Assembly (NCBI GenBank): GCA_028534125.1
Contig: JAPYYK010000093.1
Location: 682,001 to 746,000 of the forward strand
Source: Lama glama
Taxonomy: Eukaryota
Direction of reading: 5' to 3'
DNA length: 64,000 nucleotides
A program made the translations under genes and the position numbers. Within the stretch, counting starts at the first letter, position 1; each line of letters starts with the position of its first letter. The notes under the pieces are model-generated. The model was not told where the DNA came from, searched no databases, and saw only the letters and a program-made list of their open reading frames with translations. Shown here piece after piece: positions 6,246-27,337 of this stretch.

Positions 6246-7888
6246 TGTGGAAGGAGCGGGTGTGTCCAGAGTTCTTCCTGCTGCAGTAAGGGCCAGAGAG
6301 AGAGTGCTTCTGGGACTCATGTCTACATGGGCTCATGGCCAAGGGGGAGTCGGAGGAGTGGGATGGGACTAGGGAGGAGCCCCCAAGGAGAAAATTCATC
6401 AAATCTATACATTTACTCCTCACCAGGATTCTGTAAGATAAGAATTCATGACTGGCTCAAGTTATGCAGGGTGCCTGGCTCTGGAACCACCTATATGTAG
6501 CAGGACACCAGTGTCCCCTGCAAACCCAGTAGGTGCCACCTAGCAGCTCTTCCCGCTCAGGTCAGGTGATTCCAGGTTCAGTCCTCCCATGGCAGCCTCC
6601 CAGTCAAGGCCAGCCTGGCCTTGGTGCAGATGTCATGGCCTCTGAGTGGTGGAGAATGCAGTGCTCCCACCGCCTGCTGCTGCAGGTCATGCCAGAGAAT
6701 TATGATAATGAACTAGGTCCCTAGGCTGCCCCACCATCCTCCTGCAGGGCTCAAAGGACCTCTCAGTCACAGCCCCACCTCACAGCCCCTGCCCAGGCAC
6801 TGAATCTCAGCCCTTCTCAACCCCAGGCCTGGCCTCTAGGGGATGCGCTGGGGGCGCCCTTCTCTGTGACTTGTTGGGGATGGGTGGGTAGCAGGCCTGG
6901 GGCTGTGATCAGTCAGATCCAAGGAGTGACCTGAGGACATGAGGGGAGAGGCAAGGGAGAGGAGAGTCTTGGCCAGTTAGGGTTCTCCATTCTTCTGAAG
7001 GCAAACAGGTTCTGAGTGGTTAAAAGTCTGCCCCAAGGTCACCCAACCAGAAAGGGAGAACCTTACTTCTCTGTGCCAGCCCTGACATGCTCCCCGGTCC
7101 CCTCAGCCAGACTTCAAGGCCACTGCTGACCCTGGGACCCTGTGATACGAATACTTATGGCAGCTCCCTGGAAGTGTGACTAGGCCCCAACCCAGTCTCA
7201 GAATAGGGTCACAACCCTCATGGCCTTCCTGGGGGCCCTGCAGCTTCTTTTTATTCTCTAAATAGGGTAACTATGGCTCCAATGGGCCAGATGTGTGCTC
7301 AGGATGCACAGCTGTGCACCGGTGGTAGGATCACACCAAGTGGCCTGACACTGGAGCAGGCCCCGTACCTCAGCTGTGGGACAGGGATCTGAGGGAGAGG
7401 CCCTGTAGGAAAGGACTGGCCTGAAGGAGAGACAGAAGTCCTGACCAGAAGTTGTCTGTCCACCAACAAGGGACTCAGCAAGCAGGGCCTGGCATTTTGC
7501 TCTCCCTTCTCCCCCTTAGCCCTTCATACCCCTGGCTGCTCACTCACACCTAACATCCCGCTTTCACCTGTGTCCCCACGCCTGCACAATGCCCTTCTCC
7601 CCAGGCACACACTCCCCTTTTCTCCCTACTCTTTCTGGTTGTCAACACTGTGCCTGTCCCTGGGCTGGACGCTAGGTACTGAAGAGGCTGCACCAGATCT
7701 GGGCCTGTCCTGGCAGATCCCTTAGAAGGGCCCTCCAGACTCAGTGTCAAGATAGGGGAGTCTAAGGGGACACCCGCAATCAGAGAGGGCTTACTGGGGA
7801 CAAGGACCCCGGCTGAGGCCTCAGCACCACATTCCCTTACCTAGGTCACAGCCCTGTCTCTGAGCCTCTCCCTGGAGTGGCCAAGAGG

Positions 7889-8870
7889 TTCCAGGAAGCG
7901 TCCCCTCGCTCTGCAGCGCCAATTCCAAGAACTGAGGCTCCTGGCAGCTCTTGCCCAGGATCCTTTCCTGGAACACAGGCCTCACCCCGCCCCGGCTGCT
8001 GGGTCTTATTGGGCAGCTGGTGGAGGAAGGGAGGGAAGGGGTGCCCTGGGCGGGGCCTCTGGGGTCCAGACACTGAGAGGTGGGCTTAGGCTGTCAGTCT
8101 GGAGGGGGTGGCCACACTAGGGTGGAGGCGGAGGTCAATGTGAAGGCATTCTGACTCCCTGCCAACTATGGGGGTGGGGGTAGGCCCAGTGTGTTCAGCT
8201 CAGAGCCTCCCTGCACACACAGGAGACTCACCCTTTAGGCTCAGAACTTGGGCCCAACTTGCTCCATTCCACCCTCCATCCCTCCACCACCACCCCGAAG
8301 TCCCATCTAGCAGGCAAATGACATGAGCCTTACTTTGGCCCCAGAGCAGGCCTTCATCAGATAACCTCCAGCGGTACAAGCCAGGGGACAGGAGTGGCAA
8401 GTTCTGAGCAGGGAAGGGGAGTGGGATAGTCAGTTCTTGGAAGGACATGACACCTATATTATTAATCTTGTTATAATTTCACCCTGCCTGATTATGACAG
8501 AGGAAATCATCTCACCCCACACCCTCAGCAAGTTGGGTTGGGTAGGTGGGGTTGGGGGTGACAGGCCCTGATTCGTGGGCAAGGACAGGGCCCAACTTCC
8601 CTCAAGGTCACTGGGCCTCCCCCTCTGGGGCGTGTCCTCCACACACCCGGCTCAGCCTGAGCTGGCACCAGGCCCGCAGACCCGCCTGGGACCTGCCAGA
8701 TCACATTGAGCAACCAGTTCCTGAGGAGCGTTGAAGGCTGTTTGGTTTAAAATTAACTCCCCCACTCCCCCCTCCCCTGCCTGCAGGCCTCCTCTGAGTT
8801 CTTGGAAGAGGCCTCTGCTCTTACTTCCTGGGAAGAGGCCTCTAGCCGCAGCTGCTGCGATTCTAGCGAA
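7889..8870. promoter_or_regulatory. Candidate distal STAT5 enhancer 3' of CISH
   Basis: Five perfect TTCYNRGAA sites (7889, 7923, 7965, 8434, 8799), two TTC-N4-GAA sites (8825, 8861) and a GC box near 7985. Confidence 0.65.
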
Positions 8871-9500
8871 AACACCTCATCCAGGGTGGGGGCGGGGGTG
8901 CCCATGCCACGCCTTCTCTGCCTTCTACCAGGCCCAGGGATCCTCGTGGAGCCTAGCACTCCCTAGTTCAGTCACTGAGACCCAGAGGAGACGGTGGGGG
9001 AGGGGGAGATTACCACAGTGCTGAGAGAGGGTGCTACTGCCCCAAAGCTCACAGCCCCGGATCAGGCATCTGCTGGCTCTGAGTAGAGAAAAAGGGCTAT
9101 AGAAACCCAGCCTGGACTCCTCTGGCATAGAGAGAGCGTGAGCTGATCACACTGACAGCAAACTCAGGACTTTGGTCTACTTTGAGACATATATGGCCCG
9201 GAGAGATAAAGCAATCTGCCCAGGGTCACCCAGCTTTGCCTGCCTCAGCTCAGCCTGCCCACTAGATGCCAGGGTGACAACACTGACCTGGGCAGGATGC
9301 CGAGGAGCCAGCCCCCTTAGGCACTCACACTGAGGTTAAGAGCTCTCTATTAGGACACTCCTCTTTGTCTCTTACCCACAATCCTCTGCCCTGGGAACCT
9401 GTCTTCTGGATAAGCCTTCGTTTTCCAGTGTCTCCTTGCGCTCTTTGTCTCATGGGCTTTGGAGAAAAGATTTCCTGAGAACCTGCTCTCCTAACAGCTC

Positions 9501-9639
9501 NNNNNNNNNNNNNNNNNNNNNNNNNNNNNNNNNNNNNNNNNNNNNNNNNNNNNNNNNNNNNNNNNNNNNNNNNNNNNNNNNNNNNNNNNNNNNNNNNNNN
9601 NNNNNNNNNNNNNNNNNNNNNNNNNNNNNNNNNNNNNNN
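9501..9639. other. Assembly gap (139 N)
   Basis: Run of N. Confidence 1.
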
Positions 9640-10331
9640 ACTGGTGGCGGTAGGGAGCAGAGAGGGGCTTCTTTGGAGAGGGCTGAGAGGTTAGGGGCAC
9701 TTTTAGAACAAAGGTTTGGCTCAATCCAGACTATGAGTGAAATCCTCACTCCTGATGGAGGAGGAGCCCAGCTCTGGTGACAAGAATGGCACAGTCTGGC
9801 TCCTTGGTGCTGGGTGTGGGGCGAGTCACTCCCTCTCCAGCCACACCATTGGATTGTAGGTCTCCCTAGTGGGGGCTGTGCAAATGAACAATCCTAGAGG
9901 ACTGCCTGGAGGAGTTGTGGAAGTCTCAAGTTCCCTTAGCCCTCAGAGTCCACTTCTTGTGCTCTGGGCCTTGCCTGCTTCAGCCAGGCCTGGGTCATGG
10001 AAGCAACTGTCTTTCCATTGAGCATAAAGCTTTGGCCACACAAAAAGCCTCCTTCTTTGGGTCTGCTGCATCTCCTGCTTAGAGATGAACATCAGCTTCT
10101 ACTCATTCCGTATTTCCCCAAAGCCAGGCATGGCTACTCTCCAACCACTCTGTGGCATGGGCACTACCACTATTTCTGTTTGACAGATGGGGAAACTGAG
10201 GCTCCAAGAGGTTATCCGTCTGTGATCCCAGGGTGATTTTGAAGGGGCTGAAATTTGAACTCTGCCTGAGTTCTTTCCACTTGGCTGATTTGCCTCTTCA
10301 AAGACATCCCCAGGGAACTTTCATGGGAAGC

Positions 10332-13720: not shown

Positions 13721-15571
13721 CACATGCACTGGGAAAGGATTTAATTGGTAATGGGTTACCACCAGTTATTGTTTGTATGTGGTATCTTTCTTCCCAGCCA
13801 GTGTGTGCTCCTTTCACCAGCCCAGAACCACCCAGGGGTGACTGCAGTGACCAGAGGATTTTCAGCATCTGTTAGTCTGGGTCTCTGACTTGGGGCTGGG
13901 GCCCAATGACATGCCTTCCACTAATCCTGTTCTAGGCAGGCATCACTCACTCCCCTGATAGGTAAACGTGAAAAGAAGACTGAAGCAGAAAAATCTTGCA
14001 GATCAGAAGTAGCTGCCAGCTCCTCCTTAGGCAAGAGCTAGACCCTGGCTTGGGCTAAGGTGAGGATGAGGGGGATAGGACCCTGTTGTCTAGGCCACTG
14101 GTTCCAGAGACCTTAGCAGGTCTTAGCAGGCAGGGACACAGGGATAAAACCAGCATTCAAGAACAGCTTGCCTGAAAGCTGCCCCCCAGCCGCCTGTCTT
14201 TGCTGCCTCCTGTAGTGCAGGGACAGGTGGGTAGTCGGGATCCTGAAGGGTTAGCTCTGTTCTTTGCCTCACCTCCTCAGACAGTCCCCTGCCCCCTCTG
14301 GGCCTCAGTTTCCTCAACTATGGAGTATGGGTAATGTTTAGACACTCCCAGGGTTGTGGTGAACATGACATAAAGTGCAAAGCCTTTGTCCATTGCCAGC
14401 ACCCGGCGGGCACCCTGAGACATCTCCCTTCTGTGGACAACAAAGGGCTTCCTCCTGCTCCAGCAGCTTTTTGTCTGGGCCATGGCACCAGGTGGGAAAT
14501 AGCCTGCCTTTGACTGCTCTGTGTCCACTACCCCACTACTGGTACTTGATCTGGGGGTGGAGCAGACAGAGGGGTCACCTCAGGCATTCTGGGAGTCACC
14601 AAGGGGCTGAGATCCAGGCTGAAACAATGAGGAACCAAAGACATCACTGGCAGGGCCATGGTGACCTGGAGGAGGGCTGCTGTCGGGCCCTGCAGCCAGC
14701 AACAAAGTGCCAGGCAGGACATGTGGGCCTGGGCCCCACTCCCAGTACAGAGAGCCCTCACCCACCTCTCACTCACTCTTACCCAGTAGCAGGTCCTTTC
14801 TTGGCCACAAATATCTCCATGCCTTCAAGGTCCTATGCCTCCATAGTTCTTGCTTTTTATCCTTTCCTGCCTCCTCCTTATCAACATGTCACTCCTCACA
14901 CCTTCCTGCTTCCAACCTGCCAGCATTTGCCTCTTCTCAGCTGTAACTTCTAATTGCCTAGAGGCTAAGAAAATAGAAAGGTTAGAACTATTTCTAAACT
15001 AAGTGTTAAAAGGCTATGAATGAGGTTCAGAGGAGCTTTCCTGTGAGGTACTCAAGTAAAGGGGCAGAAAATTTCAGGACATAGTGGGATTCCAGGTGCT
15101 GAAGTGCTCCAAGATCAGACCATCAGACAATGGAGAGTGTTTACATTTTAGTTGCTCTTCCACCTACTTCTGGTGTCCAGGACCCTGAGTGTGAGAAGAG
15201 AGTCCTCAAACCCCAGCCAGCTGGGCCCAAACCCCATCACCACACCTCAGGTCAGATTCTGCCAGCTTACTGGCCACCATCCCCAACTCAACTGTCTGCA
15301 GCGCTGCACAGAATGACCCTTCCCCAGGCCTCCTTGTGGTTGGGAATATGAGCTTCCCAGTCATGCCCTGGTGCCTTTGCACTCCCTGTAAAGTGACTGG
15401 CCCTGACTTCTCTGACTGTTGGCCTCCTCATCTCAAAAGACACTGGCTCCTGGAGCTGTCCATAGCACCCATTCCCCCCAGAATTCTCCACTTTGTCTTT
15501 AATTGACATCTCCTGTCTGTACCTCTATCAGGTCTGATGCTCCTCTGCCACCACCCCAAACCTGGACCCTG

Positions 15572-15599
15572 CCCTAACCCTAACCCTAACCCTAACCCT
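15572..15599. repeat. Short interstitial telomeric sequence (CCCTAA)4+CCCT
   Basis: Exact vertebrate telomere hexamers read directly from the sequence. Confidence 0.95.
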
Positions 15600-15855
15600 G
15601 CAGGCAATCCAACTGGCCTTTACCTCCTGCCTCCCACCCTCCAGAGGGAACAAGAGGGAAGGAGTGGAGAAAGGCCATTCCCTGCCCCCTCCACTCTTCA
15701 GTGGTCCACTAGCAGGGCTGCTCAGCCACATAGGTCTCCGGGCCTCTGCTGACCCAGATATAAAGTGGGGGATAACAATAATAAGATTGAAGGGGACAAA
15801 CTGTGCAGAACTCAAAAGAGGCCCCACTGAGGGCTCTGTAAGTGAAAGATACAAT

Positions 15856-16898: not shown

Positions 16899-17422
16899 TC
16901 AGAGCTGGAAGGGGTACTGTCGGAGGTAGTCAGCCATGCGCCGGGGCAGTGGGAGGCAGTCCACGTCAGCCACCAGACGGTTGATGACGAGGCGGCACAG
17001 GTGCTGCAGGCTTCGGGTACTGCTTCTGCGCACAAAGGGCTGCACCAGTTTTAGGTGCACAGCAGTAGCAGGCAGTGCTGGGTCACCAGGCACATCTTCC
17101 TTAGGGGTAGACAGAGCCGGGGTAGGTGCAGGGTCAGGACTGTCGCTTCGGGTATCTGCAGCACAGGAGGCCACATAGTGCTGGACAAGGCTGACCACAT
17201 CTGGGAAGGCCAGGATGCGCGGCCTGGACAGGCAGTTGGAGTCCAGGCGGAAGCTGGAGTCTGCATACTCAATGCGCACGTTGGTGGGGCCGCGGGTGGT
17301 TTTGACAGACAGTGTGAACAGGTAGCTGGGGTGGGTGCTGTCGCGTACTAGGAATGTGCCCTCTGGCATCCTCTGCAGGTGTTGCCGGGCCTCGCTGGCC
17401 GTAATGGAACCCCAATACCAGC
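16899..17422 (-). CDS. CISH: CISH coding exon 3: SH2 domain (GWYWG...GTFLVRDS), PEST-like linker and SOCS box ([12 protein letters not shown]...[18 protein letters not shown])
   Basis: Acceptor CTAG|GC TGG TAT at 17423/17422; ORF 16899..17369 gives the SH2 and SOCS-box sequence. Spliced CDS 20+221+524=765 nt = 254 aa plus stop. Confidence 0.98.
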
Positions 17423-17657
17423 CTAGGCAAGTGTAGAGGGGGCAAGAAAATGGTCACAGTGGAAATTAGCTGGGGGCACCAACCCAGGGCAGGGCAAGGC
17501 TCAGCTTCTCCCTTCATATGTCCCTAGGGAGGGCTGTACCTCCCCCATCAGACTCTTCTGGGCAGGGCCATGTCTCTCAAATTAGACTCAAAAGGCAGAA
17601 CTAAACTTCTCCTATCAGACTTTCCAGGACAAGGCCTGTCTTCCTCCTCAGACTCAC

Positions 17658-17878
17658 CAGATTCTCGAAGGTAGGAAAAGGTCTTGGCTATGCACAGCAG
17701 ATCCTCCTCAGGGTCCAGAACCTTGGGCTCACTCTCTGACTTGGCTTGGGTCTCGTCGGCTGCCTCCTCCAGGAAGGCGCCAGCAGGCAAAGGCTGCATA
17801 GCTGGTTCGGGCAGCTCCAGGGACTGGGCCCACAGAGGCCGCTGCCCGATCTGCTCCACAGCCAGCAAAGGACAAGGT
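17658..17878 (-). CDS. CISH: CISH coding exon 2 ([23 protein letters not shown]...[12 protein letters not shown]), N-terminal region and extended SH2 subdomain
   Basis: Acceptor TTCTTCTAG|A at 17879/17878 and donor G|GTGAGT at 17658/17657. 221 nt, in frame with exons 1 and 3; overlaps ORF 17548..17868. Confidence 0.97.
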
Positions 17879-18145
17879 CTAGAAGAAGGTAGATGGGCAG
17901 TGAGTGGAGGCCCTGTGTTCTCCCTATTTCCAGGGATCCCCTATGCCCCAAACTGGCACATGACCTCCTTCCAGTCTGTCTCACTATGAATCCCAGTTTC
18001 TCCTCTGCCCACCCATGGGCTCAATGAGACCAGTACCCCACTTCCCACTTGTCATCACTAAAGGCACCTTGATTACTTTCCCCACATATGAGCCCTCTTT
18101 TGAAAGAGACTTCTCCGCCCTCCCACATTTATTAAACAGTAATTA

Positions 18146-18325
18146 CAATCGTCCCTCAGTATTCATGGGGACTGATTCTAGTTTGTGGGGACTGATTCCA
18201 GGAGCTGCTGTGGATACCAAAATCTGCTGATGCTCAAGTTCCTTATATGAATGGCATGGTACACTGAACACATGGGGCCCTCTGTATCCATGGGTTTCAC
18301 ATCTGCCACTATGGAGGGCCAACTG
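18146..18325 (+). mobile_element. MER2/Tigger-type (Tc1-mariner) MITE in CISH intron 1
   Basis: TA target duplications at 18144-18145 and 18326-18327; imperfect TIRs caatcgtccctc / gagggccaactg; internal ggataccaaaatc...gatgctcaagt motif typical of MER2. Confidence 0.75.
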
Positions 18326-19798
18326 TAATCTCTGTATTTTGGACCAACCAAATACACAGATCATTCCCTATATGCCTTTTTAGCTCACAGTGGCCAGTTG
18401 GTGTCTCCACCACACTGATAGGATTCAATGCAAAGAGGCCTTACAATGGTGCTCTACTGGCAGTGGTGGGCTTATTAAATGGCACTAGTCCTGGTTGAGC
18501 CAAGGGATGGGCCTGTGCGGGGTCCTCCCAAGAGGCCCCAAGATTATGGTAGGATGTCTGAGGTCACATGTGACCTCTCCAATGATAAGAGTATCTGTTG
18601 GAGGGACCTAGGTCCACACTAACCAGGGCTTAGAGGCCAGAATAGTCTCCCCAAACAGATCAGACTCCCATCCTTTTCTCTGTTCCTCCAGCTGAGGGTC
18701 TGGGGTAGACAGTAGCCTCTAAAGGTGCTGGCAAGTCCCACCTCCCATAAACACAAGCTGCCACTGAAGGGCAGGGTGCTCGTTCCACCTTCTGGATCGC
18801 ACCCTGACAAGCCTTCCCTACCAGGCACTAGATCGTATACAAACCTTGCTCTTCCCTAGACCTCAGCTTCTCTACCCGTGCCCCACCCCTCTCCATGAGG
18901 GTTCCTAGCAGCCCAGACACTGAGGGGTTTGGCCGCATTATATTCTCAGATGGCTAGAGTTGGGTTGTTGAGCTGGCTGCAACTGGAGCAGTAGCTTCCC
19001 TTTAGGGGAAACCCACCCAGCATGGTGATCCTGGGGCTTCCTGGGAGTGAGGGGCATGGTCCTGGTTCCCAAGGAAGACTGCTTGTCCTCTCCTCGTCAC
19101 AAAATCCTTAGGCCTAAGTTCTGGGTCTGGTCCCTTGCTGGATCTCAGGACACCAAGGTAATGAAACCCTGGGCCCTGCCCTAAAGGAGAACTAACAATC
19201 CAAAGTCATAAAAGCAAAGAATGTCATGGGGAAGTCAGGGTCTGCCTGCTCCTGTGCTGAGTTTGCTAGGCCAAAGGGAGGAGTAGTGGGGAAGGGACTG
19301 CAGGCAGAAATGATGGCATGGGTAAACACTGCCAGGTATTGCCTATGAGGCAGGAAGAGGTGGGCAGGAGCCGACAGCAGGAGCCAGACACAGGAACCAG
19401 ATCTGGCAGTGTAGGTTATAGGTGACTCTTAGAAAATTTGAACAAATCAGGGCCCCATGATCACTTTGAGGAGAAGGGGCCCCAAGAACCTGGCACACCA
19501 CAGCCTGCTAATACTTCTCCACCCCGACTCCCACTGCACTACAGAGCCCTGGAATCCCTTTTGGGGAGCTGGAGGCTGAGTTCCGAGGAACTGACTGGTG
19601 GCCTGCCTGCTGGGATCCAGGGCTCAGCTCAGGCCCAGGAGACTTCTCGAAGTAGGGTAGGCTGCTAGTTGGTCACGCCAGATGGAGCCCCCGGAGTTTA
19701 GCAGGGCACATGTGAATGTGGGTACCTCTAGGGCCAACATGGTGTCTGGGTGTGTGAATGGCTGTATTGGTCACCACAAGCTCCTGGTGAGTGTATAT

Positions 19799-19868
19799 CT
19801 GGGAGGGGTGTGTCCACAGCTGTGTCATCATCATGGTGGGGGCGGTGGCTGGTGTGTTCCAGGTGTGG
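19799..19868 (-). pseudogene. CISH: Disabled counterpart of human CISH alternative first coding exon 1b
   Basis: Translates PHLEHTSHRPHHDDDTAVDTPLP versus the recalled human isoform-1B N-terminus MYLEHTSHCPHHDDDTAMDTPLPR. No in-frame ATG, and AG|AT stands where a GT donor is needed. Confidence 0.75.
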
Positions 19869-21216
19869 GTGGCCTGTACGTGTGTGTGCCTGCTATGGAG
19901 CTCAGCCTGTGAGTTCTGCCTGGGGACCAAGCCAATGAGGGCAAACAGCCCTGAGGGGGGATCCTTCAGCAAAGCCGACAACCCAGACCTACAGTTGAGA
20001 ATCCCTGCTCCCTTCCTCCGGAGGGCACCAGCTGGTCTGTGGCTGTGTGTGTATGTGTAGGTCTTAAAAATCTCACTCCCTGACACCCAGCATCTGAGGT
20101 TCCAAGGGCATCTTCAGCTGGAGCAAAGTGAAAGAGAGGGTGGGACCCCAGAATTGGGGGGTTCCTGAAAACAAAGGCAGTGGGGGTGTGGGAAGGTGTT
20201 CTAGAATCCCAAAATTCAGAGAGGAGGAAGGGAGATACTGGAGACAATTAAGGAGAAATACTGAATTATGTCCAGTCTTCCTATCACCTCCAGGACTCCT
20301 CCCTGGAAACAGGACTGCTCAGAACAAGGGGTACTTGAGCCTCGCTCCACCTTCCACCCTTCCTCATTTGGTACCATGCCAGTTTTGATAACAGCAGCCA
20401 CTGGGCCACTGAGCTTTCCCTGTCTGTGGAGCACCCACTCACATCTTTCTCTCTCCCTGGAGCTTTCTGAGCTCCTGTCAGATCAGTCTGGAGAGCATCA
20501 GACCCCTTGGTTGAAGGGGTCCCTGAGGCTCTGGGCAGAAAGAACGTGCTAAGAATGCTTAGCTGAGGCCAAGAGGTCTTATCAGTGCCCACCCCCGCAA
20601 GTCTTTGGGAAACTTGGAGAAAGCGGGGCAGAAGCCAAGTTCCTTCTCACACTGGGATCCCAGACTGGGCTGAGAGGAGGGGTGAAGCTATTGTGGGGGT
20701 GCCCCAGACAGGACGGGGCTAAACCTAGGCTCTCCCAAGAGCTGCTTGTTTAGCAGGTGCCACCCTGAGGAGAGTCAAGGATTTCAGGCTGGCTTCTCCA
20801 GAAGAGCCTAATTGCTAGCAGGAGAGTTGATGACAGGACAGAGAGGGGCAGGGGCTGGCCCAAGGTCACCAGTATGCCAGCAGGCCAGAGTAGAGCTTTC
20901 TGGGCCCAGAAGGGGGTCTGGGCAGGTGAGCCAAGTCTTGAAGTCCGCGCTGCCTGAGGCGTCTACCTGCTCCGGCCTGAACCCCAGCTTAGCCTACCCT
21001 GTGTTTCTCCCGTCGCCAGTCGACCCTCAGTTTCCCTACCCACGGTGCGAGTAGAGGTGGTGACGATGTTGTCACCCCTCCCTATTGTCACTTCCGAGGT
21101 CTTTCCGGCGCTTTCTGACCCGTCAGGCTCTCTTAATACTCGGCACCTAGCACGGAGGCCAGTACCCTGCCTTGTGCCAGCTCGGAGGCTGGGCGGGGGC
21201 GAAGAACAGCGCTTAC

Positions 21217-21236
21217 CCCTGAACGCAGAGGACCAT
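21217..21236 (-). CDS. CISH: CISH coding exon 1 (MVLCVQG)
   Basis: Minus strand reads GGAC-ATG GTC CTC TGC GTT CAG GG|GTAAGC: strong Kozak context, canonical donor at 21216, matches the known CIS N-terminus MVLCVQG. Phase 2. Confidence 0.96.
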
Positions 21237-21455: not shown

Positions 21456-21598
21456 TTCCCGGAAGCGATGTCTTCCTAGAACCGCCGGCTGTGCGGCCCG
21501 GCGGGGAGAGGTGCGGGCAGAGGCGTCGGCTCCCTAGTCTTGGGCCGAGGGCCGCTGAAGGAAACACCTTTGACAGATTTCCAAGAACTTTCCAGGAA
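21456..21598. promoter_or_regulatory. CISH: CISH proximal promoter: four STAT5 GAS elements in two tandem pairs
   Basis: TTCCCGGAA 21456-21464 and TTCCTAGAA 21473-21481 (8-bp spacer); TTCCAAGAA 21579-21587 and TTCCAGGAA 21590-21598 (2-bp spacer). This is the established four-GAS architecture of the CIS promoter; TTCCTAGAA is also a BCL6 consensus. Confidence 0.93.

Positions 21599-26245: not shown

Positions 26246-27337
<1,092 letters not shown>

What the first reader, a model, noticed from the sequence alone, without database searches (positions are those of the whole stretch)
7889..7992. Three perfect STAT5 sites in 85 bp, about 8 kb downstream of CISH: candidate distal enhancer core
Seen: TTCCAGGAA (7889-7897), TTCCAAGAA (7923-7931) and TTCCTGGAA (7965-7973), then a GC box near 7985-7992, in sequence that does not look repetitive. 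All fit the high-affinity TTCYNRGAA form, and the same 9-mers occur in the CISH promoter. With equal base frequencies such a site is expected about once per 16 kb, so three in 85 bp is far above chance. Established: CISH is a direct STAT5 target. Inference: a second STAT5 module about 13 kb from the promoter, acting on CISH and perhaps MAPKAPK3. It may already appear as a ChIP peak in human or mouse.
Basis: partly seen in the sequence, partly recalled or inferred. Interest (0 to 1): 0.7.

Follow-up and report, generated by a model that had tools for sequence, protein, structure and literature searches.

The report
STAT5 sites in known CISH enhancer
Three real STAT5-type binding motifs sit about 8 kb past the end of the cytokine-brake gene CISH, at the likely counterpart of a published human binding peak and just beside an enhancer already shown to drive CISH, so this is likely an untested sub-part of a known control region rather than a new element.

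Summary
Observation confirmed: three TTCYNRGAA sites in 85 bp (7889-7973) and a GC box, far above chance (0 of 20,000 local shuffles; 32 such loci genome-wide, one of them at BCL6). Two more sites follow at 8434 and 8799. The region is already in print. Guides, primers and SNP context from human papers map onto window 8352-10152, which makes it the counterpart of the CISH enhancer deleted in K562 (PMC8198806) and of 'CISH-2' (PMC7337896). A 136-bp peak in a HEL-cell table (PMC3607218; inferred to be in its STAT5 list) projects to about 7850-8000, over the triple. A mouse paper reports STAT5 binding over 'five conserved GAS motifs' in the Cish 3' flank, only at raised STAT5 levels (PMC3378893); the window has five here. 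The triple lies about 395 bp outside the published deletion, so its own contribution is untested in what I read. Spacing (25 and 33 bp) is not tetramer-like. Verdict: real, likely functional, largely known; the open point is whether it is a dose-gated booster of CISH feedback. The contig is a mirror-image assembly artefact, so the second copy is not a duplication.

The parts
7889..7897 (.). GAS site 1 (TTCCAGGAA)
7923..7931 (.). GAS site 2 (TTCCAAGAA), 25 bp after site 1
7965..7973 (.). GAS site 3 (TTCCTGGAA), 33 bp after site 2 (42 bp centre to centre)
7985..7993 (-). GC box (SP/KLF-type consensus, label recalled)
7848..8002 (.). projection of the 136-bp human HEL-cell peak chr3:50612776-50612912 (two anchorings: 7848-7984 and 7866-8002); inferred to be a STAT5 peak
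8434..8442 (.). GAS site 4 (TTCTTGGAA), inside the counterpart of the K562 deletion
8369..9952 (.). counterpart of the 1636-bp human enhancer deletion that lowers CISH in K562 (left guide 8352-8371, 19/20; right guide 12-nt core 9937-9948)
8566..8877 (.). counterpart of the human 'CISH-2' enhancer amplicon; main STAT5A/B peak projects to about 8530-9150
8799..8807 (.). GAS site 5 (TTCTTGGAA), identical in human (inside a published guide matching 8791-8813 at 21/23)
8878..8878 (+). base that corresponds to human rs143356980 (hg19 chr3:50638812), reference C kept; anchor for all projections
16899..21236 (-). CISH coding region, three exons (21236-21217, 17878-17658, 17422-16899), SH2 + SOCS box
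21456..21598 (.). CISH promoter, two pairs of GAS sites (gaps 8 and 2 bp)
26960..27184 (+). first coding stretch of MAPKAPK3

Best explanation
The three motifs are likely the outer STAT5-binding module of the known enhancer region downstream of CISH, and would add to CISH induction when active STAT5 is abundant or the chromatin is already open. Mechanism: cytokine (IL-2/7/15, EPO, IL-3, GH, prolactin) activates JAK-STAT5 (established); dimers first fill the tandem promoter pairs (established); the neighbouring, constitutively acetylated CISH-2 core keeps the region accessible (shown in Ishikawa cells for its effect on CISH-1, inferred for the triple); up to three separate dimers then bind the triple, too far apart for a classical tetramer but within one nucleosome length, so they would cooperate by displacing a nucleosome (inferred); the module would contact the CISH promoter 13.5 kb away and raise output of the feedback inhibitor (inferred).
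For: Cluster far above chance; the same filter picks out the four-site cluster at BCL6, a known STAT5 element (PMC7660478). Orthology to the human enhancer is fixed by independent anchors in the right order: guide 19/20 at 8352, amplicon primer 16/20 at 8566, guide 21/23 at 8791, primer 18/20 at 8858, SNP context at 8878, guide core at 9937, primer 19/20 at 10133. In PMC3607218 Table S1 two peaks lie 868.5 bp apart centre to centre; GAS 5 and the triple's centre lie 872 bp apart, a comparison that needs no genome build. [quoted passage not shown] PMC3564941 and PMC3561979: cell-type-specific STAT binding downstream of Cish in T cells and liver. 18 of the 28 enhancer calls I saw that contain the SNP also contain the projected triple. 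Deleting the neighbouring 1.6 kb lowers CISH.
Against: No human or mouse sequence of the triple itself was obtained, so per-site conservation is not shown; the mouse 'five motifs' match by count and side only (no coordinates or figure seen). That row 1843 belongs to the STAT5 list is inferred from row order, not from a heading; it is the narrowest of the six distinct CISH peaks (136 bp) and is not repeated in what looks like the STAT5+H3Y41ph overlap list. The triple is outside every tested fragment I could map, and 10 of 28 enhancer calls exclude it. The same mouse paper's main message is that much STAT5 binding does not change expression, and wild-type MEFs did not show this binding. In IL-2-treated human CD4 T cells the enhancer singled out for CISH lies more than 40 kb downstream (PMC9839710). 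No data from this species.
Confidence: 0.72

Rival explanations
1. STAT5 binds the triple but the binding is opportunistic or fully redundant; the promoter pairs, the CISH-2 core and the far (>40 kb) enhancer account for CISH output.
For: Binding to the 3' motifs seen only on STAT5A over-expression in MEFs, in a paper on non-productive binding; narrow peak; neighbours carry the tested activity.
Against: A three-site cluster is very unlikely to arise and persist without selection; the mouse motifs are described as conserved and Cish mRNA rose with their occupancy.
Confidence: 0.17
2. The main readers are other factors with overlapping motifs (BCL6 or Ikaros as repressors; STAT1/3/4), so the module damps CISH at rest or serves other cytokines.
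For: All three 9-mers also fit a BCL6-like consensus (consensus recalled); Ikaros competes with STAT5 at GGAA motifs of Cish (PMC7660478); STAT4/5/6 bind downstream of Cish in T cells.
Against: The projected peak comes from a STAT5/H3Y41ph table; no BCL6 or Ikaros data at this position seen. Not exclusive of the best reading.
Confidence: 0.06
3. The module acts mainly on MAPKAPK3 or HEMK1.
For: Of the 28 enhancer rows seen, several are assigned to other transcripts than CISH's by proximity; HemK-type coding exons end about 16 kb on the other side and MAPKAPK3 starts about 19 kb away.
Against: CISH is the strongly cytokine-induced gene (60-fold by IL-2) and the one shown to fall on deletion of the adjacent element; the other genes were not reported there.
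Confidence: 0.03
4. Chance, repeat-derived or assembly-derived cluster with no function.
For: About 10 such clusters are expected genome-wide by Poisson and several of the 32 loci look like tandem repeats; the contig is a mirror artefact.
Against: Not a repeat; present in one 12.6-kb contig of an independent DNA run with no difference at the sites; coincides with a human peak.
Confidence: 0.02

Closest known systems
Five conserved GAS motifs in the mouse Cish 3' flank (PMC3378893)
   Same: Same gene, same side, same number of motifs as 7889-8807; STAT5-bound
   Different: No coordinates seen, so identity is by count; binding shown only at raised STAT5A in MEFs; no deletion test
HEL-cell peak chr3:50612776-50612912 (PMC3607218 Table S1) and the boxed regulatory region downstream of CISH
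   Same: Projects over all three sites
   Different: Listed, not discussed; the paper's ChIP-qPCR amplicon maps about 550 bp to the right (reverse primer at 8528-8543)
rs143356980 CISH enhancer deleted in K562 (PMC8198806)
   Same: Same enhancer region; contains GAS 4 and 5; STAT5A/B peaks
   Different: Deletion starts about 395 bp right of the triple; tested without STAT5-activating cytokines in the passages read (unstimulated, LPS, IFN-gamma)
CISH-2 estrogen-receptor-bound enhancer (PMC7337896, PMC6769255)
   Same: Neighbouring core (8566-8877) that supplies open, acetylated chromatin and activates CISH under CRISPRa
   Different: Studied for estrogen; about 590 bp from the triple
CISH promoter STAT5 tetramer sites (PMC13006268)
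   Same: Same 9-mers as the distal promoter pair
   Different: Promoter sites are tandem pairs 8 and 2 bp apart; the triple is spaced 25 and 33 bp
BCL6 four-site STAT5 cluster (PMC7660478)
   Same: Homotypic cluster caught by the same genome-wide pattern
   Different: Lies in a CpG-rich 5' region and mediates repression

Membership tests
STAT5-responsive distal enhancer module | High-affinity GAS motifs (TTCYNRGAA) beyond chance | tested here: met
   consensus as given in PMC3607218
STAT5-responsive distal enhancer module | STAT5 occupancy in cells at this position | tested here: met
   By projection only: human peak over 7848-8002, spacing 868.5 vs 872 bp; list membership inferred from row order; no data in this species
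STAT5-responsive distal enhancer module | Sites conserved across mammals | tested here: inconclusive
   GAS 5 identical in human; no distant sequence of the triple obtained; a ~98%-identical relative keeps sites 1 and 2, which has P=0.71 under neutrality; mouse 'five conserved motifs' by count
STAT5-responsive distal enhancer module | Active enhancer chromatin | tested here: inconclusive
   18 of 28 seen human enhancer calls include the projected triple; rows were pre-selected for the neighbouring SNP
STAT5-responsive distal enhancer module | Cytokine-dependent binding and loss of target induction when the sites are mutated | not testable with these tools
   No published test of the triple found
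STAT5 tetramer site (tandem GAS pair) | Two GAS sites closely spaced as in the CISH promoter (gaps 8 and 2 bp here; roughly 6-16 bp recalled as usual) | tested here: not met
   gaps 25 and 33 bp
Published, functionally tested CISH enhancer fragments (K562 deletion; CISH-2) | Lies inside the deleted or cloned fragment | tested here: not met
   about 395 bp and 590 bp outside
Tandem-repeat or multicopy-element-derived GAS array | Repeat units or many genomic copies | tested here: not met
   the genome search skips very common words and no repeat library was available

The most novel reading that the evidence does not exclude
The triple is a separate, dose-gated STAT5 switch: empty at low STAT5 activity while the promoter is saturated, filled cooperatively at high activity, and so it sets the ceiling of CISH negative feedback in T, NK, erythroid and liver cells. 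All published deletions missed it by 0.4-0.6 kb, and editing three sites would blunt only the high-dose response.
Probability: 0.3. Interest if true: 0.45.

Novelty: already known. Interest (0 to 1): 0.2.

Why it matters
CISH is the feedback brake on IL-2/IL-15, EPO, GH and prolactin signalling and a checkpoint in NK and T cells, and a variant 0.9 kb away is tied to septic-shock mortality. The enhancer region is known; what this adds is a precise map (five sites, which fragments were tested, which were not) and a cheap, specific test of the one untested module. It would not surprise a specialist.

Tried and rejected
Relatives search: none held. Metagenome scan with a conserved anchor: 1 hit, unrelated bacterial-looking DNA with no alignment to the window. 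Public runs (4 of 24 listed runs laid on 6500-8600): only close relatives; RNA-library contigs cover patches all along the stretch at depth 2-7, no silent control, so no evidence of enhancer RNA; site 3 not covered in those runs. Six further human guides (3 of 4 CISH-A, 2 of 4 CISH-B, 1 of 4 CISH-3) did not map (best 6-7 mismatches of 23); of four CISH-1 oligos only one mapped weakly (16/20 at 14487). Second genomic copy rejected as a duplication: the contig is its own reverse complement about a 100-N gap. Earlier findings of this scan: nothing. Papers that gave nothing on this element: PMC8047016, 10.1101/163113, PMC2741462 (its 'CISH enhancer' is the 5' site), PMC13006268 (promoter only). 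PMC5699083 is not held, so mouse STAT5 looping data at Cish were not seen. A second genome-wide cluster (G000:C1039020) was fetched but its gene not identified. Tetramer reading rejected on spacing.

Full report
Observation. The gene context is right: an SH2 + SOCS-box gene on the minus strand (best PDB match SOCS2, E 1.5e-41; named CISH from recall of its N-terminus and because human CISH-locus oligos map around it), MAPKAPK3 on the plus strand (E 5.5e-21) and HemK-type exons 8-14.5 kb left of the window (motif scan). The triple is 7.9 kb past the poly(A) signal and 13.5 kb from the promoter sites. Two further sites at 8434 and 8799 make five in 920 bp.

Chance. Even so a triple within 85 bp appeared in 0 of 20,000 local dinucleotide shuffles and 0 times in 6.4 Mb of order-5 Markov sequence. 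Genome-wide the pattern with gaps of 1-45 bp has 45 matches (16 for the reversed control), 32 loci after I merged overlapping and mirrored rows by hand; about eight look like tandem repeats by eye, and the count may be a lower bound. I followed two of the other 31: one is a four-site cluster about 13 kb from a BTB exon whose best matches are BCL6, a known STAT5 element; the other was not identified. The triple is not a tandem repeat or local duplication.

Second copy. The genome search found a 100%-identical inverted copy 369 kb away. It extends over all 50 kb tested, and the contig's centre and ends show that the 1.75-Mb contig is its own reverse complement about a 100-N gap. This is most likely an assembly artefact.

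Mapping to human. PMC8198806 deleted 1636 bp around rs143356980 in K562 cells and CISH fell. Its left guide matches 8352-8371 (19/20, NGG following), the right guide shares a 12-nt core at 9937-9948, a screening primer matches 10133-10152 (19/20), and the fourth oligo did not map. The SNP context in its Table S8 matches by eye around 8878, giving hg19 = window + 50,629,934 locally. STAT5B and STAT5A peaks over the SNP project to about 8529-9153 and 8607-8963, centred on site 8799. The 'CISH-2' enhancer of PMC7337896 maps to 8566-8877 (3 of 4 oligos), and one guide contains site 8799 unchanged. So the functionally tested enhancer is the neighbour: the triple lies about 395 bp outside the deletion.

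The triple itself. Table S1 of PMC3607218 (HEL cells) has nine CISH rows. One, chr3:50612776-50612912, projects to 7848-7984 or 7866-8002 under two anchorings, covering all three sites; its centre is 868.5 bp from the main peak's centre, against 872 bp between site 8799 and the triple. The build is not stated in the passages seen; a 25.0-kb offset to hg19 is implied by the peaks. I infer that the row is in the STAT5 list because it lies after two rows that are repeated later with identical coordinates (the apparent overlap list) and is not itself repeated; I did not see the headings. [quoted passage not shown] The count and side match; no coordinates were seen. PMC3564941 and PMC3561979 report cell-type-specific STAT binding downstream of Cish, PMC7667885 IL-2/IL-7-dependent open sites in the locus. 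18 of the 28 enhancer rows seen (part of a longer list, all chosen for containing the SNP) include the projected triple.

Against. No distant sequence of the triple was obtained; a relative about 98% identical keeps sites 1 and 2, which is uninformative. The projected peak is narrow. Wild-type MEFs lacked the 3' binding, and that paper argues much STAT5 binding is non-productive. [quoted passage not shown]

Mechanism. Shown: motifs, position, spacing (gaps 25 and 33 bp; promoter pairs 8 and 2 bp), orthology of the neighbour and its effect on CISH. Inferred: STAT5 occupancy of the triple, binding as separate dimers within one nucleosome length rather than as a tetramer, dependence on the open CISH-2 core, and a contribution to CISH at high signal. 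Confidence 0.72; main rival, bound but dispensable, 0.17.

What I saw of each paper. PMC8198806: abstract, section 2.7 whole, passages, supplement rows from Tables S6-S8 and S10 (file cut when stored). PMC7337896: passages, whole supplement text. PMC6769255: passages, CISH rows of Table S5. PMC3607218: passages, CISH/HEMK1 rows of Table S1. PMC3378893, PMC3564941, PMC3561979, PMC9839710, PMC7667885, PMC7660478, PMC13006268, PMC8047016, PMC2741462, 10.1101/163113: passages only. No figures; peak tables of the mouse papers and bioRxiv supplements were not seen and could settle the coordinates. PMC5699083 not held. That no functional test of the triple is in print rests on searches of an open-access library only.

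Verdict. Real and probably functional, but part of an enhancer region known since 2012 as STAT5-bound and since shown by deletion to drive CISH. Novelty: already known. Interest 0.2. The residual value is a well-defined untested module.

Noticed in passing
G000:C994580 (whole contig; centre 874324-874423): The 1.75-Mb contig holding the window is a mirror image of itself about a 100-N gap (100% identity at centre, ends and 50 kb tested); every gene on it appears twice. G000:C1039020 shows the same mirrored coordinates. Likely assembly artefact that will inflate copy counts.
   Followed up: yes
G000:C4:50291273-50291345 (L032:9273-9345): Four TTCYNRGAA sites in 73 bp in a CpG-rich region about 13 kb from the BCL6 BTB exon; the known BCL6 STAT5 cluster, serving as a positive control.
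   Followed up: yes
G000:C1039020:418666-418772 (L033:9666-9772): Four TTCYNRGAA sites in 107 bp of non-repetitive-looking sequence with three more within 4.3 kb; gene not identified; a candidate STAT5 element.
   Followed up: partly
one search list, e.g. G000:C14:23100215, C18:9065798, C3:47498496, C90088:1221, C24:20875635: About two dozen other non-repeat triple-GAS loci genome-wide; a short candidate list of strong STAT5 elements.
   Followed up: no
window 8825-8834 and 8861-8870: Two TTC-N4-GAA (STAT6-type, label recalled) motifs beside GAS 5; 8785-8842 scores as a weak 27-bp tandem duplication, so the first may be a decayed copy of GAS 5.
   Followed up: no
window 14487-14506 and 14654-14666: A CISH-1 primer maps weakly (16/20) and a near-ERE (2 mismatches) lies nearby, but both CISH-1 guides fail to map: the human estrogen element may be degenerate in this species.
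   Followed up: partly
window 4586, 5886, 10577: Single TTCYNRGAA sites flanking the cluster; 8 sites in 6 kb against 0.68 expected.
   Followed up: no
window 15571-15600: Short run of TTAGGG-type units (read on the minus strand) just past the CISH poly(A) signal.
   Followed up: no
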